From the NCBI RefSeq assembly GCF_003018235.1, contig NZ_CP027437.1: 64,000 nt of DNA. One strand, written 5' to 3'. Source of the stretch: Escherichia coli. Its GTDB lineage: Bacteria; Pseudomonadota; Gammaproteobacteria; Enterobacterales; Enterobacteriaceae. Shown one piece after another: positions 12,888 to 33,052 of the stretch (the first letter of the stretch is position 1; every line of letters starts with the position of its first letter). The position numbers and the translations under genes were made by a program. The notes below the pieces were generated by a model. That model had not been told where the DNA came from and did no database searches. It was given only the letters and a program-made list of their open reading frames with translations.

Positions 12888-14262
12888 CAGCCACACTGTT
12901 GACGACGGACTTTATCTGTTCGTCGGTGCCTGCACGGTTTCAGCCCCCGGAAGGGCTGCGTTCGGGGCTTCACCCCGTTCCCCGGCCTCAGGGTCGCGAT
13001 GCGTTTTCTGCTGCATGACCGTTCAGAACCTCCGTTGATACTCGTCACTCATTACCGTTCGGGCCTTCGGGTGTCATGCCCTACTATGCCCTCTGCTGAC
13101 TCCTGTCCGCCGGTCAGCGCCCCTTACGGTACGCTCAGTTCTGGATACAGAACGACGGACAGGCCTCCCGGGGTAAGTTCAGCTGCCTTCACCACACACC
13201 TGTCCGATTTACCACCCCGGTTCTTGATGGTTATGGCCTTCGCAATTCTTTGCTTGCTCCGCCAACCGGGTAGGCCTCGTATCGGATTTCTGTTCGTCAG
13301 GTCATGGATTTGCTTCACGCTTCCTTCAGACCCCGCTTCACGACGACGCCCTTGCGCTTCGCTAGTCCTTCGCTACCATCAGGCTGGACAGGGGACTTTC
13401 ACCCCCGAGCTGCTGAACATGCCCGGCACACAAAGAAAGCCCCTCCGGAGAGGGGCTGGTATGCGCAATGTTCCATCATCTGCATGGTGCCGGGTGCCTC
13501 CCGGTGAGTCCGGCATCAGCATCCGAACCCGCAATATTGCCCAAATAAAGCTAAAGGATGATTGTGACCTGCTGATTTGCCCCTCCGCACAGGGGGATTC
13601 ACCATGCAGACATTTTCTTAGCAAAATCACTGCGTGCCAGGCAACTCCCAACTACATAAAATGTGGAGTTTGTGGCATTTATGCACATAACTCACAGGAA
13701 TTATCTTAAAAAAGCTGACAGGGCTTCCCCGGCAACGTAATACCATCATTCCCTGAAATGACATCCCCGTATTATCGACAGGCTCAAAAAGGAGCCAGTC
13801 ATCTGAGGATGACTGGAAAAAGGAAAGATAAAAAATTATTCATCATACAACCTTCGTTGCAAGGGAGAATCCTGCGGTGCAGCAACATACAAAAACATAA
13901 GCCAACTAACAATATGCAGGCATAGCATTTTCGGATTTTGTTATATGGCACGGCAACTGAATGCTCACCTGATATACAGTCCGGTATAAAATTGCAAAAA
14001 AAAACGCCAGTTAAGGCGGCATTTAAACAGATAACAGGATTTTTTCGTAATTTCAACAACGTCGGGGTGGCGCATCGTCAGTCCCTGTCAGGAAGTACCA
14101 GCACTCCCACCAACAATGCACCACCCCATTCAGCGTTGTAAAACACGGCACAGGAACTATCAATGTTTTCTGTTACAGTTCGGGAAAAACGATAAACACG
14201 CCACGGGCTCTTTTTGCTGTGAATTAAAAACGGTCCTGAAAGCCGGCTCATCATTTTTTACT

Positions 14263-14339
14263 GGACCGTCACCGGGGACTCGAACCCCGCACTCTCAACA
14301 TAAAAGGTTGATGCTCTTTCCTGATGAGCTAGTGACGGC
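14263..14339 (-). tRNA. phage-encoded tRNA, anticodon read as UUU (Lys-type loop CUUUUAU); identity uncertain
   Basis: 77-nt cloverleaf with 7-bp acceptor stem CCGTCAC/GTGACGG, T-arm CGGGG-TTCGAGT-CCCCG, CCA end. Confidence 0.55.
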
Positions 14340-14340
14340 A

Positions 14341-14416
14341 TGGTGGCCCTTGCTGGATTTGAACCAGCGACCTGGCGGTTATGAGCCGCTCGCTCTCACC
14401 ACTGAGCTAAAGGGCC
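14341..14416 (-). tRNA. phage-encoded tRNA with CAU anticodon, ileX/ileZ-like (tRNA-Ile2 or Met)
   Basis: 76 nt GGCCCTTTAGCTCAGTGG...CTCATAA...GGTTCAAATCC...CCACCA; close to E. coli ileX as I recall it. Confidence 0.8.
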
Positions 14417-20490: not shown

Positions 20491-21038
20491 GCGTTAGTTT
20501 CTCCACAGACACAAAACGCCACGACGCCCGGAGCTGCACACTCGCGGGCGTCACTACTTTCTGAAACGCAAAAGATTTTGTAGACCAGTGCTGCATGCTC
20601 CTGGAGCTTCGAAATTGACAGATACAACTCATCATTAATTGCTGTCTGCTCGTGTGGCTCCACTACCCCATCTTCGATTGCCGAACGAATCTGCTTTGAG
20701 TAACTCCCGATCTGTTCGATGACTTCCAGCAGGCGCTGGTTTATATCGGCGTTCTCTACTTCCTCAATTTCAGGAAGCGATACAAACACCCCACCTGCAG
20801 ACTGTGCGACAGCATCCGCAATGTAGTGAGTGCCAGCCGCGCGCTGTAAAATCATTGCCCATCCCAGCGGGAAAATCTGATCGCCATCTGCACGAAGGCG
20901 GTTGAATAAAGCGTTCTCTGTTACATCCAGCCACTCAGCAGCTTCAGCGTAACCCCCCGGCAACGCCGCGATAGTTTTTCTGACAGCTTTCACGTACCAC
21001 TCAGGCTGTTTTTCTACTTTCCAGTGATGCTTACCCAC
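20487..21038 (-). CDS. YdaT-like / CII-analogue protein (start uncertain; ORF extends to 21143)
   Basis: directly downstream of cro-like gene; AAGGAG RBS then GTG at 21038. Confidence 0.35.
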   Translation of the reverse strand: MGKHHWKVEKQPEWYVKAVRKTIAALPGGYAEAAEWLDVTENALFNRLRADGDQIFPLGWAMILQRAAGTHYIADAVAQSAGGVFVSLPEIEEVENADINQRLLEVIEQIGSYSKQIRSAIEDGVVEPHEQTAINDELYLSISKLQEHAALVYKIFCVSESSDARECAAPGVVAFCVCGETNA

Positions 21039-21060
21039 GGCTATCTCCTTAAAACTGTGG

Positions 21061-21309
21061 TTACTTTTCATCTGATGAGTCTTTAATCTTTTGAAAAATA
21101 TCTGGACGTAATTTTTCTTTTGATACGCCAGTGGTCTTTTCAATGAAAATCGAGAGCTTTGCAGGGGGACGCTTTTCTCTGTTCAACCAGTTCCAGACAT
21201 GTTGTTGCTTTACTAAATGACCGCTGCTGGCTGTGAGCTTCCGAGCCAATTCTGATTGACCACCAGCCAGAGCGATTGCCTCCGATAAGGCTAATTGCTC
21301 AGGTGTCAT
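21061..21309 (-). CDS. Cro-like HTH repressor (YdaS family)
   Basis: LAGGQSELARKL...VKQQHVWNW...EKTTGVSKEKLRPDIF; AGGAGA RBS; divergent from cI. Confidence 0.7.
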   Translation of the reverse strand: MTPEQLALSEAIALAGGQSELARKLTASSGHLVKQQHVWNWLNREKRPPAKLSIFIEKTTGVSKEKLRPDIFQKIKDSSDEK

Positions 21310-21324
21310 AGCTTTCTCCTTTTT

Positions 21325-21420
21325 CGGTAGTTAAGTTGTTACGAGATGCAAGAATACAACATTAACAACTTTTATCACAACTTTTAGGTGTTGGAAAGCT
21401 AAAACATAAAGTTGTAACCT
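21325..21420. promoter_or_regulatory. OR-like operator/promoter region between cro and cI
   Basis: repeated AAGTTGT / ACAACTT half-sites and ACAACTTTTAGGTGTTGG motif. Confidence 0.5.
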
Positions 21421-21444
21421 CATCAGAAAAGAGAGGGATATGTT

Positions 21445-22131
21445 GTGAAAACACTGGCAGAACGATTAAAGATAGGTAGAGAGAAAGCTGGCATGAGCCA
21501 AGCTCAACTAGCTGAAAAAATTGGACTTTCACAACAATCTGTAGCCAAAATAGAGAATGGAGAAACTCTACAACCGCGCAAAATTAAAGAAATTGCAAAA
21601 ATTTTAGGTGTATCACAAAAGTGGTTACAACTTGGTATTGAAGACAACGCATCCATACCTGATCTTGTTGTAAAAGAAGCAGAAAGCACCGCATTAGACC
21701 CCGATATTTTCGTAAACATTCCTGTTTTAGATGTCGAGTTATCGGCTGGTAACGGATGTCTGGCTGAAATAGTTGAATCAGCTATTGACTGGTTTCCGTT
21801 AAGAAGAGCAGATTTGAGAAAATCTGGCGTATGTGCATCTAATGCCAAGATCGTAAAAATCTGGGGGAACAGTTTATTACCGGTTCTCAATAATGGAGAT
21901 CTTGTTGCCGTTGATATTTCTCAAACCGTTCCTATTCGTGATGGCGATCTTTATGCCGTACGAGATGGTGTATTGCTAAGGGTTAAAATACTTATCAACT
22001 TACCTGACGGTGGCTTGATTCTTAGAAGCTTCAACAAAGATGAGTACCCAGATGAAATACTCACCTTTGAGGATAGACGAGCCAGAATTCATGTTATAGG
22101 TAGGGTATTCTGGTCATCGCGAACTTGGTAA
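21445..22131 (+). CDS. CI-type repressor (HTH_XRE plus S24 LexA-like peptidase domain)
   Basis: N-terminal HTH MSQAQLAEKIGLSQQSVAKIENGE; C-terminal GNSLLP ... RVK; GTG start after GAGAGGG RBS. Confidence 0.85.
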   Translation: MKTLAERLKIGREKAGMSQAQLAEKIGLSQQSVAKIENGETLQPRKIKEIAKILGVSQKWLQLGIEDNASIPDLVVKEAESTALDPDIFVNIPVLDVELSAGNGCLAEIVESAIDWFPLRRADLRKSGVCASNAKIVKIWGNSLLPVLNNGDLVAVDISQTVPIRDGDLYAVRDGVLLRVKILINLPDGGLILRSFNKDEYPDEILTFEDRRARIHVIGRVFWSSRTW

Positions 22132-22653
22132 TGCGTCGAAAAGCATTTCTTCAGAAATAATTTTAAGTTTTGCACCATTATCATCCCGATAAGATATAGC
22201 CTTTTCGATCTTCCTTCCGTGACTTGAGAATTTCCAATCACGGGAGGAAAGCGTCCCTATTACTAAAAAATCCAACTTTTGAGTAATTCCACTACTGATG
22301 TTCCCACCAGCATTTTTAATCAAATTTTCAACTACGGCTCTCTTTCCTGCAACAAAAGTGCCTGTAAGACAATAGGTTTTACCCTCTAACTCTATCGAAG
22401 CCCCTACATCAATAGGCAGCCTGGTCGCCAAACCATCCACCACCCCACTTTCCAAGTCACATCCAGTGAAGTCTACTAATGCCTTATGTAGAGTTAAACT
22501 CTCATCTTCAGTAATAACACCATCTTTAAGAATTTCCTTTACAAGTGCATAAAGGTTTTTTCCTGGGTAGTTGTTCCTCAAAGCTCCATTTTGCTCAAGC
22601 CACCAATTAAGATATCTTATTTCTTCTTGAGTTAAGTTTCGATCAGCAATTAA
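22114..22653 (-). CDS. in-frame continuation after TGA: two TerB-like motif copies plus C-terminal BRCT-like domain (no ATG; TTG at 22581)
   Basis: frame open from the TGA at 22654-22656 to 22114; LIADRNLTQEEIRYL and ILKDGVITEDESL motifs; BRCT-like GKTYCLTGTF...DFLVIG. Confidence 0.45.
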   Translation of the reverse strand, partial: LIADRNLTQEEIRYLNWWLEQNGALRNNYPGKNLYALVKEILKDGVITEDESLTLHKALVDFTGCDLESGVVDGLATRLPIDVGASIELEGKTYCLTGTFVAGKRAVVENLIKNAGGNISSGITQKLDFLVIGTLSSRDWKFSSHGRKIEKAISYRDDNGAKLKIISEEMLFDALPSSR

Positions 22654-23004
22654 TCATTTACATAGTCCATTAAGTAAATGGACATCTACATCTTTGGAGT
22701 AAAAATCAATTTCAGGGATATCAAGAATTTCTCTCTGTATTTGAAGAAGGCTATTTTTAAGGTCATCACGTTCTTCTGATGTGATTATTCCATCCGCAAG
22801 AATATCCGATACCCGTGCTGATAGACTTTTTATAACTCCATTATTGATAATCTGCTTTGCTTCAAGTAACCATGTATCTAAGTAAAGAACCTCCTCTTCA
22901 CGGACAACTCCATCTGCAATGATTCCATCAATGATGCTAATCAAGTTAGCAAATAACTTGTCCCGGTTCTGTGTGTAATTAAAAGCGTAAAGCGCGTCTT
23001 CCAT
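22654..23004 (-). CDS. TerB-like repeat protein (116 aa), ends at in-frame TGA
   Basis: ATG 23004 with AGGAGG RBS; two copies of I-[IL]-A-D-G-[VI]-x-x-E-E motif. Confidence 0.6.
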   Translation of the reverse strand: MEDALYAFNYTQNRDKLFANLISIIDGIIADGVVREEEVLYLDTWLLEAKQIINNGVIKSLSARVSDILADGIITSEERDDLKNSLLQIQREILDIPEIDFYSKDVDVHLLNGLCK

Positions 23005-23060
23005 ACAACCTCCTTTTTTTGATAATCCTTGCACTCCTTGACTACACGTTCAAACTACAT

Positions 23061-23115
23061 AAAGTTGTTGACAACATTCAAAACAACAACCAGATTACAA
23101 CTTAAAGGTGTTGAG
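23061..23115. promoter_or_regulatory. OL-like operator cluster
   Basis: AAAGTTGTTGACAACATTC palindrome-like site and ACAACTTAAAGGTGTTGAG, matching the OR motif. Confidence 0.45.
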
Positions 23116-23184
23116 ATGACGAACAGGCAGGACGCCCACGAAGTAGCCGTCTGGGGCATATGAAGTCCAGGATGATTCGTTAGC

Positions 23185-23215
23185 AACAAAAAAGCGCCCT
23201 ATAGGACGCTTCGCT
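23185..23215 (-). terminator. intrinsic terminator after periplasmic-protein gene
   Basis: minus-strand AGCGTCCTATAGGGCGCT followed by TTTTTT. Confidence 0.45.
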
Positions 23216-23237
23216 CTTTAACAATCTGGATGACTTA

Positions 23238-23750
23238 TTACTCAGATTTGAACTTTGGTTCTGGCAAAAGAGGAGGAGTTGAGTCCTCGAATCGTAGCCA
23301 GTGCTCCCAGATATCGTGGGATTGTAATTCCAGAAGACCAATTTGACGTGATGCAACTGCAGTGCCAGCTATAGTTCCTCCTGCATAATCAACCTGGACG
23401 GACTTTGACGCTTTCTCAATTAATTCTGTCCAAGCTTCACTTTCCGCGTTAAAAGAAGCAGTTAATTCCTGCAGACGCTGTGGATCATCCTTGTTGTCTT
23501 GTTTCAAACGATTCAGGGCGGCCACCGAATACTTATTCTTAACCCAGCTAACCTGAGCTAACTGAACTCTCTGACAAGCGTCCATATCAGTAGTTGTTTC
23601 CTGAGGCATATCAAAGCAGGAAATAAAAAAAGTCTCAACACCATCATTTAGACTACTGCTCGGCTGGTTCAAAGCATCAGAAGCATTGGATGCTATCGGT
23701 ATTATCAGTGCTACCGACAGAATCAAACGTTTAACATAAATCGCTCCCAT
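23238..23750 (-). CDS. secreted/periplasmic protein (signal peptide; possibly DUF1311/LprI-like)
   Basis: ATG 23750 with GAGGGG RBS; N-terminal signal peptide; two Cys. Confidence 0.5.
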   Translation of the reverse strand: MGAIYVKRLILSVALIIPIASNASDALNQPSSSLNDGVETFFISCFDMPQETTTDMDACQRVQLAQVSWVKNKYSVAALNRLKQDNKDDPQRLQELTASFNAESEAWTELIEKASKSVQVDYAGGTIAGTAVASRQIGLLELQSHDIWEHWLRFEDSTPPLLPEPKFKSE

Positions 23751-24218
23751 TTAATTATCCCCTCTAAGAACAGAGTCATCCAGATTATCTGAATCCTTGT
23801 TGTTGGGGAATAACCAGGCCCACCTCGCCTGATGTGGCTAAAAGCAGGCACATAACAGCTAAGTATTTTCAACCAGAGAGAATCCTTAGCGTTGTGGTGA
23901 ATGCGGCTCAGCGCACGCGGGCTAAGGTTGAGGCTGACAGTCGACCTTCTGTGGATACCCACCCGCCTGGTGTGCAACCTTCGCCAGGCACCGGGAGGCA
24001 CCCGGCACCACAACTTTATGCTGTGTATAGTCCTGGCGGTACCAGTTTGTACCCTTGCTTCCGGCTGGTACCGCTCTTTTTACAAAACAGAGAAGAGCAT
24101 CACCGGACGACGGGCTCATAACCCAATCCACCCGGGCGGCTGCCACCGCAGGTGTTCTTCTCTGTTTTGTGGAGAAACCAACCGACCTTGCAGGGTCGAT
24201 ATGATGAGGAGCAGCAAA

Positions 24219-24581
24219 ATGGCTAGCGAACGCAGTACCAACGTGCAGGAATTTATCGTAGAACTGGACGGCGGCGTATTTGAAACTAAACTCGGCGCAG
24301 TTCTCAGTGAAGTCGCTTCCGGTGTGATGAACACGAAAAACAAAGGTAAAGTCTCGGTCAATCTGGACATCGAACCGTTTGATGAGAACCGTGTAAAAAT
24401 CAAACACAAACTCTCATATGTTCGCCCGACTAACCGCGGGAAAATTTCTGAAGAAGACACCACCGAAACGCCGATGTATGTCAATCGCGGTGGTCGCCTG
24501 ACTATTCTGCAGGAAGACCAGGGACAGTTACTGACTCTTGCCGGTGAACCTGACGGAAAACTCCGTGCAGCAGGTCGTTAA
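24219..24581 (+). CDS. YfdP-like protein (120 aa)
   Basis: AGGAG RBS; first gene of a yfdPQRST-like block as in CPS-53. Confidence 0.55.
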   Translation: MASERSTNVQEFIVELDGGVFETKLGAVLSEVASGVMNTKNKGKVSVNLDIEPFDENRVKIKHKLSYVRPTNRGKISEEDTTETPMYVNRGGRLTILQEDQGQLLTLAGEPDGKLRAAGR

Positions 24582-24646
24582 TATCGTTTTTAATAAACTG
24601 ATTATTTATCTCATCACTGAATATCTTTATATAGTGAGGACTTATT

Positions 24647-25471
24647 ATGTCTCAGAACTTAGACGCAACCGCAATTAATCAAATCCATGCTCTTATTTCT
24701 GCTCAGGGTGTTAATGAAATTATCAGTAAGATTGGTGCCGATGCCGTGGCATTGCCTGAGAATTTCCGCATTCATGATCTGGAAAAATTTAATTTAAATC
24801 GCTTCCGTTTCCGTGGTGCGCTTTCCACTGCCAGCATTGATGATTTTACCCGTTATTCTAAAGATCTTGCAGATGAAGGCACCCGCTGCTTTATCGATGC
24901 CGATAATATGCGAGCCGTCAGTGTGCTTAACCTGGGTACTATTGATGAACCAGGTCACGCAGATAACACCGCCACTCTCAAACTGAAAAAGACAGCACCG
25001 TTCTCTGCCCTGTTGTCTGTTAACGGCGAGCGTAACTCCCAGAAGTCACTGGCAGAATGGATTGAAGACTGGGCCGACTACCTTGTGGGCTTTGATGCTA
25101 ATGGTGACGCCATTCAGGCAACAAAAGCGGCTGCGGCAGTCCGTAAAATAACGATTGAAGCAAACCAGACCGCTGATTTTGAAGATAATGACTTCAGCGG
25201 CAAACGCTCCCTGATGGAATCTGTCGAAGCGAAGACCAAAGACATTATGCCAGTGGCATTTGAATTTAAATGCGTTCCGTTTGAAGGCCTGAAAGAACGT
25301 CCGTTTAAATTACGCCTCAGCATTATCACTGGCGATCGTCCTGTACTGGTTCTGCGCATTATTCAGCTGGAAGCAGTGCAGGAAGAAATGGCTAACGAAT
25401 TTCGTGATCTGCTTGTTGAGAAATTCAAAGACAGCAAAGTAGAAACCTTTATTGGTACTTTTACCGCCTGA
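24647..25471 (+). CDS. YfdQ-like protein (DUF2303)
   Basis: 274 aa; order and size match yfdQ. Confidence 0.65.
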
Positions 25472-29879: not shown

Positions 29880-30198
29880 GATTTTTGATGAAAGCAACCT
29901 GATCGATTTAAAGTTACATGAAAGAATTTTCAATTAAAGAAGCCACATAACTATATGTATTTAAATGATTTATATAGCTAGACCTCAATTAACTGAAAGG
30001 ATTTTGAAAGAGTAAAAGAGCTTTAATTTGGGATTAATTATTGGGGTGAGAAATAATGGCAAAAGTGCGGCGCTTCGCCACCTCTTGCAAATAAGGAGAC
30101 AACGTCATAATTCTTTCTTCTTGAGTAAGCGGCATCGCGCCGCGCTTGTTGAAAACGAAAAATTGCGGCTATTTTACCCATCAACGGGGGGGAGGCAA

Positions 30199-30876
30199 TC
30201 AGTGTTTACACAGGAGCTGCTCCAGTTCGTGCAACGAAGAAACGGTCCAGGTGGGCGCGATGCCTTCTGGTTGCTCGCGATTGTGCGCATTCAGCCAGCA
30301 GGTCGCAAGCCCGGCGTTGATGCCACCGAGAATATCGGACTCGGCAGTGTCGCCAACCATCAGCACGCGTGAACGGTCAGGATTGCCCGCCTGTTCCAGC
30401 GCATAATCGAAAATTTTCTTATTCGGTTTGGCAACGCCAACTTCTTCGGAAATCACCAGCAAATCGAAATAATCACGCAGGCCCGTGCGTTCCAGACGCA
30501 CTTGCTGCAAGGCGCTAAAGCCGTTGGTGATGATGCCAATTTTAGCGTTGCCACGAATGGCGTTAAGCAGAGAAACCGCGCCCGGCAGCGGCGTACAGAT
30601 TTCCGCCATCGCATTAATAAAGGCTTCGTTGAGTTTACCCGGCTCGACGTTCAGCCGTTCGGCCCAGCTCTCAAACCGCCCGTGCTGAAGCTGTAATGAA
30701 GTGATCGCGCCGTTTTGATAATCCACCCACAGTGGCTTGTTAACGGCCTGATAGTCCTGAAAATCTTCAGCGGTAAAGGTGACGCTGTAATCAAGAAACA
30801 TCCGCTGCAGGCCGGTGAATGAGTCAAAGGTAAACAGCGTTTCATCGGCATCAAAGAAAATCCAGTCCCACTTCAT
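30199..30876 (-). CDS. yjjG: pyrimidine 5'-nucleotidase YjjG (HAD family)
   Basis: 225 aa; HAD motif FFDADETL. Confidence 0.9.
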
Positions 30877-30890
30877 TATTCCACCTTGTC

Positions 30891-31337
30891 TTACATACTG
30901 ATTGGCAACGCCATGATGATGGCGTCTTCGCGACCGTCCGTGGTGGGGTAGTAATTGCGGCGAATCGTCGCCTCGTTAAAGCCTAAACTTTCGTACAGTG
31001 CAATGGCGGCAGCGTTTGAGGCACGGACTTCCAGCCATAGCGTCGCCACGCCGCGTTTTTCCAGTTCGTCGATCAGATGTTCCAGCAGCGCCCTTCCCAA
31101 TCCCTGACGCTGATAGTCAGGATCGACCGCAATATTGAACAATGTAGCTTCATCCAGCACCACTTGCGTAATCGCAAACGCCGCCATTTTGCCGTTTTGC
31201 GTTAACTGAAAGTTGAGATAACGCTCGCCCTGGTTGCTGGCAAAGGTTTTTTCACTCCACGGAAAGGCGTGGGCGCGTTGTTCAATGTGGTAAGCCGCTG
31301 GTAAATCAGTCGTTTCGAGGGAAGAAATCGTGTTCAT
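30891..31337 (-). CDS. rimI: ribosomal-protein-S18 alanine N-acetyltransferase
   Basis: 148 aa GNAT; conserved context holD-rimI. Confidence 0.9.
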
Positions 31338-31719
31338 ATGTGCAAATTTGTTGCCATAACGCGGCGCGTGCCGTTGGGTTTGCCCGTAATTCGGTGAGCG
31401 CCGGTGATGCCACCTGAGCGCCTTCCAGTGATAGCGGTTCGTCAGTACCCAACCGCCAGCTGTTGCAGCGACTGCCTTGCGGCAGCATCGCGATTTTTTC
31501 TGGCGTCAGTTGCAGCACTTGATCGGGGCTGACGGTTAATGCGCGCAGAACATCGCTCACTAAAGGATCAGTCAGGGCGGGAAGATCGTTTGCCACCATC
31601 ACCAGACGGACGTGTGCCGGGATCGCAATGGCAATCTCCCCCTGCAACGCGCCAGGGCGACGCAGCGACCACTGGGTAATGCCCAGTTGCTGTAACTGCC
31701 AGTCTCGTCGGGATGTCAT
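31306..31719 (-). CDS. holD: DNA polymerase III psi subunit
   Basis: 137 aa; overlaps rimI start. Confidence 0.9.
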   Translation of the reverse strand: MTSRRDWQLQQLGITQWSLRRPGALQGEIAIAIPAHVRLVMVANDLPALTDPLVSDVLRALTVSPDQVLQLTPEKIAMLPQGSRCNSWRLGTDEPLSLEGAQVASPALTELRANPTARAALWQQICTYEHDFFPRND

Positions 31720-31821
31720 AGCGAATCGCTCCTGTTGTCAGGGGCGCAAATATAGCAAATTCGTCGATACCGCGCCAACATATGGCTATAATCGCCGCCA
31801 GTATCAATTGAGGAGCATTCC

Positions 31822-32853
31822 ATGTCTGCATTTACCCCGGCAAGTGAAGTCTTGCTGCGTCACAGTGATGATTTCGAACAAAGCCGTATTCTTTTTGCCG
31901 GAGACTTACAGGATGACCTGCCCGCGCGTTTAGATACCGCGGCCAGCCGTGCTCATACCCAGCAATTCCACCATTGGCAGGTGTTAAGCCGCCAGATGGG
32001 GGATAACGCCCGTTTTAGTCTGGTCGCCACGGCGAATGATGTCGCAGATTGCGATACGTTGATTTACTACTGGCCGAAGAACAAACCGGAAGCCCAGTTC
32101 CAGTTGATGAATTTACTTTCTCTGCTGCCGGTGGGCACGGATATTTTTGTCGTTGGCGAGAACCGCAGCGGCGTGCGCAGCGCCGAACAGATGCTGGCAG
32201 ATTATGCGCCGTTGAATAAAGTCGACAGCGCCCGTCGCTGTGGCCTCTATTTTGGTCGTCTGGAAAAACAGCCGGTGTTTGATGCCGATAAATTCTGGGG
32301 CGAATACAGCGTCGATGGCCTGACGGTCAAAACGCTGCCGGGCGTGTTTAGCCGCGACGGTCTGGATGTCGGTAGCCAGTTGCTGCTCTCGACGTTAACT
32401 CCGCACACGAAAGGTAAAGTGCTGGATGTCGGCTGCGGCGCGGGCGTGCTTTCGGTTGCCTTTGCGCGCCATTCACCGAAAATTCGTCTCACTCTGTGCG
32501 ATGTCTCTGCGCCAGCGGTAGAAGCCAGCCGCGCAACACTTGCGGCCAACGGTGTTGAAGGTGAAGTCTTTGCCAGTAACGTCTTTTCCGAGGTGAAAGG
32601 TCGTTTTGATATGATCATCTCCAACCCGCCGTTCCACGATGGGATGCAAACCAGCCTCGATGCGGCGCAAACGCTGATTCGCGGCGCGGTGCGTCATCTT
32701 AATAGCGGCGGCGAGCTGCGAATTGTAGCGAACGCCTTCCTGCCTTATCCGGACGTGCTGGATGAGACATTTGGCTTCCACGAAGTGATCGCGCAAACCG
32801 GGCGCTTCAAGGTGTATCGCGCCATTATGACCCGCCAGGCGAAGAAAGGTTAA
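31822..32853 (+). CDS. rsmC: 16S rRNA (guanine1207-N2)-methyltransferase
   Basis: 343 aa; SAM-binding motif DVGCGAG. Confidence 0.9.
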
Positions 32854-33052
32854 GTATCTGATATCTGTCGCCGCATACCGTGTCGGATGCGGCGTACACG
32901 CCTTCTCTGACCGACAAACGAATTATCCACAATCCGCTGATGGACATTTTTCCAGCAATTACACCTCCGGCGATAATTAACTATTGACGAAAAGCTGAAA
33001 ACCACTAGAATGCGCCTCCGTGGTAGCAATTCTTTTTAAGAATTGATGGTAT

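What the first reader, a model, noticed from the sequence alone, without database searches (positions are those of the whole stretch)
22114..23115. TerB-like-repeat / BRCT reading frame split by one in-frame TGA, at the rex-equivalent slot of the immunity region
Between the 3' end of cI and a second operator cluster, on the opposite strand, a single 296-codon frame runs from ATG 23004 (AGGAGG RBS) to 22114 with exactly one stop, TGA at 22654-22656. Upstream of the TGA are two copies of an I-[IL]-A-D-G-[VI]-x-x-E-E motif (TerB / DjlA-N-like); downstream, with no ATG, are two further copies and a C-terminal BRCT-like domain (GKTYCLTGTF...DFLVIG). The motif continues across the stop (LIADRNLTQEEIRYL right after it), so this is either one gene with a recent nonsense mutation or a gene needing UGA readthrough. 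In lambda this slot carries the rexAB exclusion genes. I do not recognise this TerB-repeat plus BRCT architecture as a named defence system, so it is the best candidate here for an undescribed prophage exclusion module.
Basis: partly seen in the sequence, partly recalled or inferred. Interest (0 to 1): 0.75.

Follow-up and report, generated by a model that had tools for sequence, protein, structure and literature searches.

The report
Broken prophage BRCT-domain gene beside cI
This is one prophage gene, normally a 296-residue protein of unknown function that sits next to the phage repressor in many temperate phages, and in this E. coli it has been knocked out by a single G-to-T change that turns an invariant glycine codon into a stop.

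Summary
A minus-strand frame runs from ATG 23004 to the stop at 22114-22116, with one internal TGA at 22654-22656.

The TGA is an ordinary nonsense mutation, not readthrough. Intact E. coli homologues have GGA (Gly117) at that codon, and this glycine is invariant in 100 diverse relatives. The allele is real: identical DNA occurs in an independent assembly, and the two fragments occur on about 60 contigs.

The intact gene belongs to a catalogued but uncharacterised family ("BRCT domain-containing protein", PHROG 3989, Vibrio phage K139 Orf2). A confident AlphaFold model shows two tandem four-helix units, each with two D-x6-E hairpins, followed by one RFC1/LigA-type BRCT domain with a conserved phosphate pocket. 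"TerB-like" is supported only at motif and fold level, not by Pfam.

The family is lysogeny-module cargo:
- In 78 of 80 viral contigs it is convergent with, and co-diverging with, the same cI.
- In K139, Pseudomonas phages and others it lies directly downstream of cI.

A conserved extended -10 promoter abuts an OL operator with lambda PRM-like geometry. This suggests expression in the lysogen, but that is inference.

A defence or exclusion role is plausible and untested. The gene is not a member of PADLOC candidate PDC-S48, because it lacks the exonuclease. The copy in this window is inactive.

The parts
22114..23004 (-). Whole pseudogene: a 296-codon BRCT-domain protein gene plus its stop, interrupted at codon 117
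   Evidence: Translation. It is 97.5-97.8% identical in DNA to intact annotated E. coli genes WP_152799383 and WP_000389078.
22654..22656 (-). In-frame TGA: a nonsense mutation of GGA (Gly117) by a single G-to-T change
   Evidence: DNA alignment A1, column 349. Gly117 is invariant in 29 close and 100 diverse homologues. The same allele occurs in L013 and on about 60 contigs.
22726..22977 (-). First four-helix unit (residues 10-93), with D-x6-E hairpins at D31/E38 and D71/E78
   Evidence: AlphaFold model, helices 10-28, 36-52, 56-69 and 76-93, pLDDT over 90.
22465..22695 (-). Second four-helix unit (residues 104-180), with hairpins D121/E128 and D161/E168. The stop codon falls in its first helix.
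   Evidence: AlphaFold model, helices 104-118, 126-143, 148-158 and 166-180. D121, E128, D161 and E168 are invariant or nearly so.
22135..22389 (-). BRCT domain (residues 206-290), no longer translated in this allele
23009..23014 (-). Shine-Dalgarno sequence AGGAGG
   Evidence: Read directly from the sequence. Conserved across genera.
23025..23053 (-). Predicted promoter of the gene: -35 TTGAAC (23053-23048), a 17-nt spacer, TG (23033-23032), -10 AAGGAT (23030-23025)
   Evidence: In 20+ loci from several genera the two hexamers and the TG are conserved and 17-18 nt apart, while the spacer between them varies. The simple consensus scan did not find it. No transcript data are available.
23057..23113 (.). 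OL-like operator cluster shared with OR: ACATAAAGTTGT(TGACA) at 23057-23073 and ATTACAACTTAAAGGTGTTG at 23094-23113
   Evidence: Repeat families D3, D11 and D12 link it to 21356-21415. Conserved in Citrobacter and Serratia loci.
23068..23096 (+). Predicted PL: -35 TTGACA (23068-23073), 17 nt, -10 CAGATT (23091-23096), pointing away from the BRCT gene. In relatives it reads TTGACA-17-TAAATT.
   Evidence: Reverse complement. This is a consensus reading, not shown experimentally.
21445..22131 (+). cI repressor (HTH plus S24 peptidase, 228 aa), convergent with the BRCT gene; the 3' ends overlap by 18 nt
   Evidence: ORF list. PHROG 4 and CI-like repressor matches. Pfam HTH_3 plus Peptidase_S24 on the homologues. 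It co-diverges with the BRCT gene in 78 of 80 loci.
21330..21420 (.). OR operator region between cro (21061-21309, minus strand) and cI
   Evidence: Sequence and repeats. The equivalent region in L005 is shown.

Best explanation
Identity (shown). Positions 22114-23004 (minus strand) are a single prophage gene inactivated by one G-to-T substitution, GGA(Gly117) to TGA. The allele is a real, inherited pseudogene carried by a lineage of E. coli lysogens. It is not a sequencing error, not two genes, and not a recoding site.

What is left. Only a 116-residue fragment can be made. It holds the first four-helix unit plus part of one helix. The second unit and the BRCT domain are lost.

The intact protein (shown). 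It has 296 residues: two tandem four-helix units, each with two D-x6-E hairpins (TerB-like at motif and fold level), packed against a single RFC1/LigA-class BRCT domain. The phosphate-pocket residues T214, G215, R222 and K265 are conserved.

Genomic setting (shown). It is cargo of the lysogeny or immunity module. In enterobacterial lambdoid prophages it lies between OL/PL and the 3' end of a co-diverging cI. In Vibrio K139, Pseudomonas phages and other elements it lies directly downstream of the repressor.

Expression (inferred). It is expressed in the lysogen. In this clade that would be from a weak extended -10 promoter whose -35 abuts an OL operator in the way lambda PRM abuts OR2, so bound cI could shut PL and switch this gene on.

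Mechanism (inferred, about 0.4). The BRCT pocket binds a phosphate-bearing ligand, most likely a 5'-phosphorylated DNA end or nick, as in RFC1 and LigA. The helical units act as a sensor or interaction module. There is no catalytic domain, so the protein would work by occupying or marking DNA ends or nicks of incoming or replicating foreign DNA, or by recruiting host factors. That would be a superinfection-exclusion or defence role that benefits the lysogen.
For: Nonsense mutation:
- Alignment with intact E. coli genes shows GGA at that codon. The only other differences from L002 are 9 synonymous and 2 missense changes.
- Gly117 is invariant in 29 and in 100 homologues.
- All 120 best database relatives are single proteins of 279-304 aa.
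- 76 of 79 evaluable IMG/VR copies are intact.

Real allele:
- The 116-aa and 155-aa fragments are found exactly on 60 and 57 contigs.
- L013, from an independent sequencing run, is identical over 2191 nt including the TGA.

Architecture:
- AlphaFold model with pLDDT 92.4 and pTM 0.90.
- N-terminal Foldseek hits to proteins named TerB family or DjlA-N.

Context:
- Searches show the gene convergent with cI in 78 of 80 loci. BRCT identity ranges 57-99% and cI identity 50-99.6%.
- K139 has a lysogenic operon cI-orf2-glo-int.
- Phage Marin has cI followed by the BRCT gene.
- L014 has an HTH+S24 repressor followed by the BRCT gene.
- L095 has HTH, a membrane protein, the BRCT gene, then an integrase.
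- The cI-BRCT cassette shares a low GC content of 34-41%.

Promoter and operators.

DNA-end theme: relatives are fused to DEDDh exonuclease or to the LigA HhH+BRCT region.
Against: No experiment or paper in the searchable library addresses the function of this family. The defence or exclusion role therefore rests on position and domain logic alone.

The protein has no recognisable effector domain. Pfam does not recognise TerB in any of 100 members.

The promoter and its PRM-like activation are read from conservation and spacing, not from transcripts. The same operator overlap could equally mean repression in the lysogen and expression only after induction or infection.

Convergent overlap with cI would cause transcriptional collision if both genes are on in the lysogen.

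BRCT domains also bind phosphopeptides, so a protein ligand is not excluded.
Confidence: 0.8

Rival explanations
1. Programmed recoding: the UGA is read through or decoded as selenocysteine or tryptophan, so the full 296-residue protein is still made, perhaps as a regulated minor product.
For: The frame stays open and nearly unchanged after the stop, with only 2 missense changes relative to intact alleles. The allele persists on about 60 contigs.
Against: Every homologue examined encodes Gly at this codon (GGA; invariant in 100 sequences). The stop is therefore derived and lineage-specific, and any readthrough amino acid would replace an invariant glycine. The downstream sequence is the same in intact alleles, so no dedicated signal accompanies the stop. 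Rfam found no recoding or SECIS element in 20500-25000 at E<=1. From general knowledge, a U following UGA is a comparatively efficient termination context in E. coli. The near-intact downstream frame is what a recent mutation would leave.
Confidence: 0.03
2. Sequencing or assembly error: the strain really carries GGA.
For: It is a single-base difference.
Against: The same 116-aa and 155-aa products are recorded on 60 and 57 contigs from NCBI, ENA and Logan assemblies. An independently assembled run (L013, SRR7691681) is identical over 2191 nt including the TGA.
Confidence: 0.02
3. The intact protein is not a defence or exclusion factor. Instead it is an accessory of the lysis-lysogeny switch. 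For example, it could be a DNA-damage (nick or end) sensor that tunes RecA-dependent cleavage of the adjacent S24 repressor, or its convergent transcription could damp cI expression after induction.
For: It is tightly linked to, and co-diverges with, one cI family in 78 of 80 loci, with overlapping 3' ends. In most lineages the neighbouring repressor is a LexA-like HTH+S24 protein. BRCT is a classic DNA-damage-response module. The gene's promoter shares the OL operators.
Against: The K139 repressor shows no detectable similarity to this cI, and L095 pairs the gene with a short HTH protein. The association is therefore with the lysogeny module in general rather than with one repressor type. SfIV and Kati phages share the flanking sequences but have a different, shorter cI and do without the gene. 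The TGA allele persists in many lysogens, so the gene is dispensable for stable lysogeny.
Confidence: 0.25
4. The intact protein is a lytic-phase DNA-metabolism helper, for example one that recruits or mimics host ligase or clamp at nicks or cos ends. On this view it is repressed by cI in the lysogen and made early after infection or induction.
For: The promoter overlaps an OL operator, which could mean repression. Relatives are fused to LigA C-terminal HhH+BRCT or to DnaQ-like exonuclease. The BRCT is closest to the RFC1, LigA and phage ligase-B class.
Against: In K139 the homologue lies in the annotated lysogenic operon. In three other lineages it directly follows the repressor on the same strand. 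It is absent from closely related phages, which is typical of accessory rather than core replication genes.
Confidence: 0.15

Closest known systems
Vibrio phage K139 / Kappa Orf2 (kp3) and PHROG 3989, annotated 'BRCT domain-containing protein' and often mis-annotated 'NAD-dependent DNA ligase'
   Same: Same family and architecture. The PHROG 3989 match is full length at E 3e-128. K139 Orf2 is 33% identical over 95% of the protein. Both are located beside the phage repressor in the lysogeny module.
   Different: K139 orf2 is co-transcribed downstream of cI, in the order cI-orf2-glo-int. Here the gene is inverted, convergent with cI, and has its own operator-linked promoter. This copy carries a nonsense mutation. 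Neither gene has a known function.
PADLOC phage-defence candidate PDC-S48
   Same: Shares the C-terminal module of one four-helix unit plus BRCT. Residues 118-251 match profile positions 238-377 of 411, at E 1e-7.
   Different: PDC-S48 proteins start with a DEDDh 3'-5' exonuclease. P0204 matches profile positions 18-379, and P0191 and P0204 also hit the DEDDh model. The window protein has no nuclease and has an extra four-helix unit instead. PDC-S48 is itself only a candidate, and I found no paper on it.
Lambda rexA-rexB (immunity-region exclusion genes)
   Same: Occupies the same interval, between the 3' end of cI and OL/PL. It is accessory, since it is absent from related phages. It is probably expressed in the lysogen, which is inference.
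   Different: There is no sequence or architectural relationship. It is a single soluble protein rather than a sensor plus membrane channel. It lies on the opposite strand to cI.
TerB-domain proteins (TerB, DjlA N-terminal domain, Shango SngA)
   Same: Repeated hhADGxhxxxE hairpins in helical bundles. Foldseek matches AlphaFold-DB proteins named TerB family or DjlA-N at E 5e-7 to 2e-6, with target TM-score up to 0.86.
BRCT domains of RFC1 (p140), NAD-dependent ligase LigA, and PR1 phage ligase subunit B
   Different: It is not attached to a ligase or clamp-loader catalytic core. DNA binding has not been tested.

Membership tests
PHROG 3989 / K139 Orf2 family (BRCT domain-containing prophage protein) | Full-length sequence match to the family profile | tested here: met
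   phrog_3989 at E 3e-128, residues 2-295 against profile positions 2-295 of 296. 99% identical to the E. coli protein cluster P0001.
PHROG 3989 / K139 Orf2 family (BRCT domain-containing prophage protein) | Uninterrupted reading frame of about 290-300 codons | tested here: not met
   TGA at codon 117. The window copy is therefore a pseudogene member.
BRCT domain (Pfam PF00533), RFC1/LigA single-BRCT class | Profile match and BRCT fold | tested here: met
BRCT domain (Pfam PF00533), RFC1/LigA single-BRCT class | Binding of a 5'-phosphorylated DNA end or phosphopeptide through the T/S-G...K/R pocket | not testable with these tools
   The pocket residues T214, G215, R222 and K265 are conserved and align with the RFC1 T-G...R residues. 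Binding itself needs biochemistry.
TerB superfamily (Pfam PF05099 and relatives) | Match to the TerB sequence profile | tested here: not met
   No TerB hit for the protein or for any of 100 aligned relatives. One relative hit DUF533 at E 0.03.
TerB superfamily (Pfam PF05099 and relatives) | TerB-like helical fold with paired D/E hairpins | tested here: inconclusive
PADLOC PDC-S48 (defence candidate) | N-terminal DEDDh exonuclease followed by the helical unit and BRCT (full-length profile match) | tested here: not met
   Only profile positions 238-377 of 411 are matched. True members P0204 and P0191 match from position 1-18 onward and carry DEDDh.
Lambda Rex-type immunity-region exclusion module | Located between cI and OL/PL | tested here: met
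   Operators and PL lie at 23057-23113, the gene at 22114-23004, and the cI end at 22131.
Lambda Rex-type immunity-region exclusion module | Co-transcribed with cI in the lysogen | tested here: not met
   The gene is on the opposite strand to cI. Distant homologues in K139, Marin and L014 do meet this feature.
Lambda Rex-type immunity-region exclusion module | Excludes superinfecting phages | not testable with these tools
   No phenotype data were found.
Programmed UGA recoding site | Stop codon conserved among homologues, with an associated recoding signal | tested here: not met
   Homologues have GGA, and the glycine is invariant. No Rfam element was found.

The most novel reading that the evidence does not exclude
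The intact family (two D-x6-E four-helix units plus a phosphate-binding BRCT, with no enzymatic domain) would be a previously unrecognised lysogen-expressed immunity factor, carried next to repressors of unrelated temperate phages (lambdoid, P2-like K139, Pseudomonas siphophages). It would recognise 5'-phosphorylated ends or nicks of incoming phage DNA and block their ligation or replication. In the enterobacterial clade it would be switched on by the prophage repressor itself, from a PRM-like promoter built into OL. The TGA allele in this window would then be a natural loss-of-function control.
Probability: 0.3. Interest if true: 0.65.

Novelty: new member of a known kind. Interest (0 to 1): 0.33.

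Why it matters
For this window the practical result is negative. The "split frame" is a pseudogene, so no recoding biology is involved and this lysogen has no working module.

The value lies in the family it points to. It is a widespread, strongly conserved protein: 57-99% identical across Enterobacterales, with recognisable relatives in Vibrio, Aeromonas and Pseudomonas phages. It reliably sits beside the repressor in lysogeny modules and has never been characterised.

It combines a DNA-end or phosphate-binding BRCT with a TerB-like helical sensor. Relatives are fused to exonucleases that a defence-prediction database already lists as candidates.

If it proves to be an exclusion or defence factor, it would add a non-enzymatic, end-binding mechanism to prophage-encoded immunity. 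It would also be an example of a repressor-activated accessory promoter embedded in OL. The naturally occurring GGA and TGA alleles offer a ready-made isogenic comparison.

Tried and rejected
- Readthrough or selenocysteine: rejected. The codon is GGA in relatives, the glycine is invariant, and Rfam finds no element.
- Sequencing error: rejected by independent assemblies.
- Two separately initiated genes: rejected. There is no homologue with that organisation among 120 proteins and 80 loci. The only downstream start is a TTG at 22581, which would remove the first one and a half helices of the second unit.
- Membership of PDC-S48: rejected, because the match is partial and there is no exonuclease.
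- TerB by sequence: Pfam search on 100 members, a PDB profile search and hhalign all gave nothing convincing.
- The simple sigma-70 scan found no minus-strand promoter upstream of the gene. The promoter proposal comes only from cross-genus conservation.
- The weak profile hits to YmfL and CII-like regulators did not hold up in a direct comparison with the window's own CII-like protein.
- Literature searches for PDC-S48, BRCT plus prophage or defence, and K139 orf2 returned nothing on function.
- The first representatives-search job was lost and had to be rerun. The first related-loci run failed because alignment A3 was too diverse.
Full report
**1.

Reading the minus strand from 23004 gives ATG, 116 sense codons, TGA at 22654-22656, 179 more sense codons, and a final TGA at 22114-22116. 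An AGGAGG lies five bases upstream of the ATG.

Four hhADGxhxxEE-type motifs occur at residues 28-38, 68-78, 118-128 and 158-168. They are exactly 40 residues apart, and the third begins immediately after the stop.

The 3' end overlaps that of a 228-residue cI (21445-22131, plus strand) by 18 nt. The host is E. coli: the chromosomal flank at 29900-33000 is 99.7% identical to E. coli chromosomes.

**2. The TGA is a plain nonsense mutation in one gene**

- Forty-six complete E. coli genomes carry at least 80% of the region, at about 97.5% identity. The 30 best listed annotate it as one 296-residue "BRCT domain-containing protein".
- Aligned codon by codon, the window differs from strain JCKP02 by 9 synonymous changes, 2 missense changes (K143R, K150N), and GGA to TGA at codon 117.
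- Gly117 is invariant in 29 relatives of 67-99% identity. It is one of only four invariant positions among 100 relatives reaching down to about 26% identity.
- The best 120 database relatives are single proteins of 279-304 residues from Escherichia, Salmonella, Citrobacter, Klebsiella, Enterobacter, Serratia, Cronobacter, Plesiomonas and others.
- Among 80 IMG/VR loci, 76 of 79 evaluable copies are intact. Two other independent lesions exist: a stop after codon 241 in L040/L041 and a frameshift in L097.

The allele is not an error. The exact 116-residue and 155-residue products are on record from 60 and 57 contigs. An independently assembled run (L013) is identical to the window over 2191 nt, including the TGA.

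Readthrough or selenocysteine decoding is therefore not supported. The stop is derived, and it hits an invariant glycine. The sequence downstream of it is the same as in intact alleles, and no Rfam element is present.

No usable restart exists. The only downstream start is a TTG at 22581, which would begin inside the second helical unit.

**3. What the intact protein is**

*BRCT domain.* Pfam finds only a BRCT domain, at residues 206-290. NCBIfam hits are limited to the BRCT regions of LigA and an epsilon-like exonuclease. PHROGs gives a full-length match to phrog_3989, of unknown function.

*Overall fold.* An AlphaFold model built on a 100-sequence alignment is confident, with pLDDT 92.4 and pTM 0.90. 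It shows helices 10-28, 36-52, 56-69 and 76-93, then helices 104-118, 126-143, 148-158 and 166-180, then a BRCT fold. That is two tandem four-helix units plus one BRCT. The stop codon lies in the first helix of the second unit.

*"TerB-like" is only partly borne out.*
- No Pfam TerB hit in any of 100 members.
- No TerB in a PDB profile search.
- Foldseek against AFDB50 does retrieve proteins named "TerB family tellurite resistance protein" (E 5e-7; and E 2e-6 with target TM-score 0.86) and "DjlA N-terminal domain" (E 1.6e-6).

The four D-x6-E pairs (D31/E38, D71/E78, D121/E128, D161/E168) are the conserved core.

*Family size and variants.* The family is large: 2857 cluster representatives at E<=1e-3 and 136 at E<=1e-30. 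It comes in a long form of about 295 residues and a short form of about 210 residues, the latter with one helical unit plus BRCT. Some relatives carry added domains: a DEDDh/RNase_T exonuclease, the HhH+BRCT end of LigA, or GYF_2.

*Relation to PDC-S48.* The PADLOC candidate PDC-S48 turns out to be the exonuclease-fused form. The window protein matches only its C-terminal third and is therefore not a member.

**4. Where it sits**

*The immunity region.* The region 23049-23113 repeats operator sequences of the cI-cro intergenic region. In the window, Citrobacter and Serratia, this stretch contains a good promoter on the strand opposite to the BRCT gene. It reads TTGACA-17-TAAATT in the relatives and CAGATT in the window. 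That promoter points toward the yfdP/Q/R/S/T-int genes, so it is PL.

*The leader.* A conserved leader of about 110 nt (23114-23229) follows PL. It is shared with SfIV, SfII, SfV, Kati and more distantly ST64B and Yersinia phages. In SfIV and Kati this leader lies within about 85 nt of the end of cI, and there is no BRCT gene.

*Conclusion on the slot.* The BRCT gene is accessory cargo inside the immunity region, between OL/PL and cI. This is the interval that holds rexAB in lambda, but here the gene is on the strand opposite to cI. The cI-BRCT cassette also shares a low GC content of 34-41%, against 46-52% in the flanks.

*Linkage with cI.* In 78 of 80 IMG/VR loci a homologue of this cI lies convergent to the gene, abutting or overlapping it (-11 to +1 nt) in 76. 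The two genes diverge together, with BRCT identity 57-99% and cI identity 50-99.6%.

*Distant relatives sit beside repressors too, but co-directionally.*
- K139: cI-orf2-glo-int in the annotated lysogenic operon.
- Pseudomonas phage Marin: cI followed by the BRCT gene.
- A metagenomic element: HTH+S24 repressor followed by the BRCT gene.
- L095: HTH, a membrane protein, the BRCT gene, then an integrase.

The repressors are not all related to each other. The common factor is the lysogeny module, not one repressor family.

**5. Expression (inference)**

A basic consensus scan finds no minus-strand promoter upstream of the gene. Alignment of more than 20 upstream regions from several genera shows a different picture:
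- a conserved TTGAtt,
- a 17-18 nt spacer of variable sequence ending in a conserved TG,
- a hexamer nA..AT (AAGGAT in the window),
- and an A-rich stretch with GGAGG.

This is the signature of an extended -10 promoter. In the window the -35 is at 23053-23048 and the -10 at 23030-23025, which predicts a start near 23018.

By analogy with the 20-nt OR site, the adjacent operator (about 23071-23052) would span roughly -53 to -34 relative to that start. That would overlap the -35 by two bases while covering the PL -35. This is the geometry of lambda OR2 relative to PRM and PR.

It suggests that bound repressor shuts PL and activates this gene, matching the co-transcription with cI seen in other lineages. 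Repression is the alternative reading. No transcript data were available.

**6. Mechanism**

*Shown.* The domain make-up, the conserved phosphate pocket, the absence of any catalytic domain, residence in the lysogeny module, dispensability, and fusion of the module to DNA-end enzymes in relatives.

*Inferred.* The protein binds a phosphate-bearing ligand, most likely a 5'-P DNA end or nick. It acts non-enzymatically, by occupying or marking such sites or by recruiting host factors, to the benefit of the lysogen through exclusion or defence.

*Rivals.* It could be an accessory of the induction switch, or a lytic-phase DNA-metabolism helper.

*This window.* Whichever is right, the copy here can make only the first helical unit and lacks the BRCT domain, so it is almost certainly non-functional.

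**7. Comparison and novelty**

The family is catalogued (PHROG 3989, NCBI "BRCT domain-containing protein", K139 Orf2) but uncharacterised. I found no paper on its function or on PDC-S48.

The window feature is a defective member of that family. It is not a recoding site and not a member of a named defence system. The family as a whole remains a reasonable, untested candidate for a new lysogen-expressed immunity factor.

**8. Verdict**

- Correct: nonsense mutation, BRCT domain, and the slot.
- Wrong: readthrough.
- Weak: TerB.
- Untested: exclusion.

Interest is modest for this locus and moderate for the family.

Noticed in passing
window 23861-24083 (+): Near-threshold match to the Rfam sRNA family STnc100 (44.5 bits against a gathering score of 47, E 1.6e-7). 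It lies at the start of the early-left (PL) region, upstream of the yfdP-like ORF.
   Followed up: no
window 23114-23229: A non-coding stretch of about 110 nt immediately downstream of the predicted PL. It is 95-97% identical in phages Kati, SfIV, SfII and SfV, and 85-88% identical in ST64B, Yersinia YeP and Pantoea phages that have different immunity regions. It is probably a conserved PL leader (nut-like site or small RNA?). No function was assigned. Kati annotates a 33-aa CDS in it.
   Followed up: partly
window 23238-23750 (-), terminator 23191-23212: A 170-aa protein with an N-terminal signal-like sequence (phrog_7681, unknown function, no PADLOC hit) and its own intrinsic terminator. It is antisense to the PL transcript. 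The same slot holds a different gene (ECs1072 family) in strain JCKP02 and in SfIV, so this is a variable cargo site.
   Followed up: partly
L040 / L041 (IMG/VR) and L097: Independent disrupted alleles of the same gene elsewhere: an in-frame stop after codon 241 (L040/L041, 92% identity) and a frameshifted copy (L097, 99% identity). The gene is occasionally lost in lysogens.
   Followed up: partly
L008 5348-5773 (-), Serratia prophage: A stand-alone 141-aa protein with two ADG...E hairpins and weak Pfam TerB hits (i-E 0.006 and 0.2). It sits in the cargo slot next to the BRCT gene's upstream region.
   Followed up: partly
P0161, P0202, P0191, P0204, P0168, P0244, P0156, P0225 (representative proteins): The helical-unit plus BRCT module occurs fused to several partners: the HhH+BRCT C-terminus of LigA without the adenylation domain, DEDDh exonuclease, and two unidentified domains of about 150 aa shared between pairs of proteins (P0168/P0244 and P0156/P0225).
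   Followed up: partly
L095 2434-5400: A 60%-identical homologue in a different integrative element, arranged as a short HTH regulator, a 207-aa protein with a C-terminal membrane helix, the BRCT gene, then an integrase. The integrase appears split into two ORFs.
   Followed up: no
window 14262-14416 (-): Adjacent tRNA-Lys(ttt) and tRNA-Met(cat) genes, about 8 kb to the cro side of the immunity region, apparently inside the prophage.
   Followed up: no
window 21300-23100: The cI plus BRCT cassette is markedly AT-rich (GC 0.34-0.41) compared with neighbouring prophage DNA (0.46-0.52). This is consistent with the two genes moving together as one imported module.
   Followed up: partly
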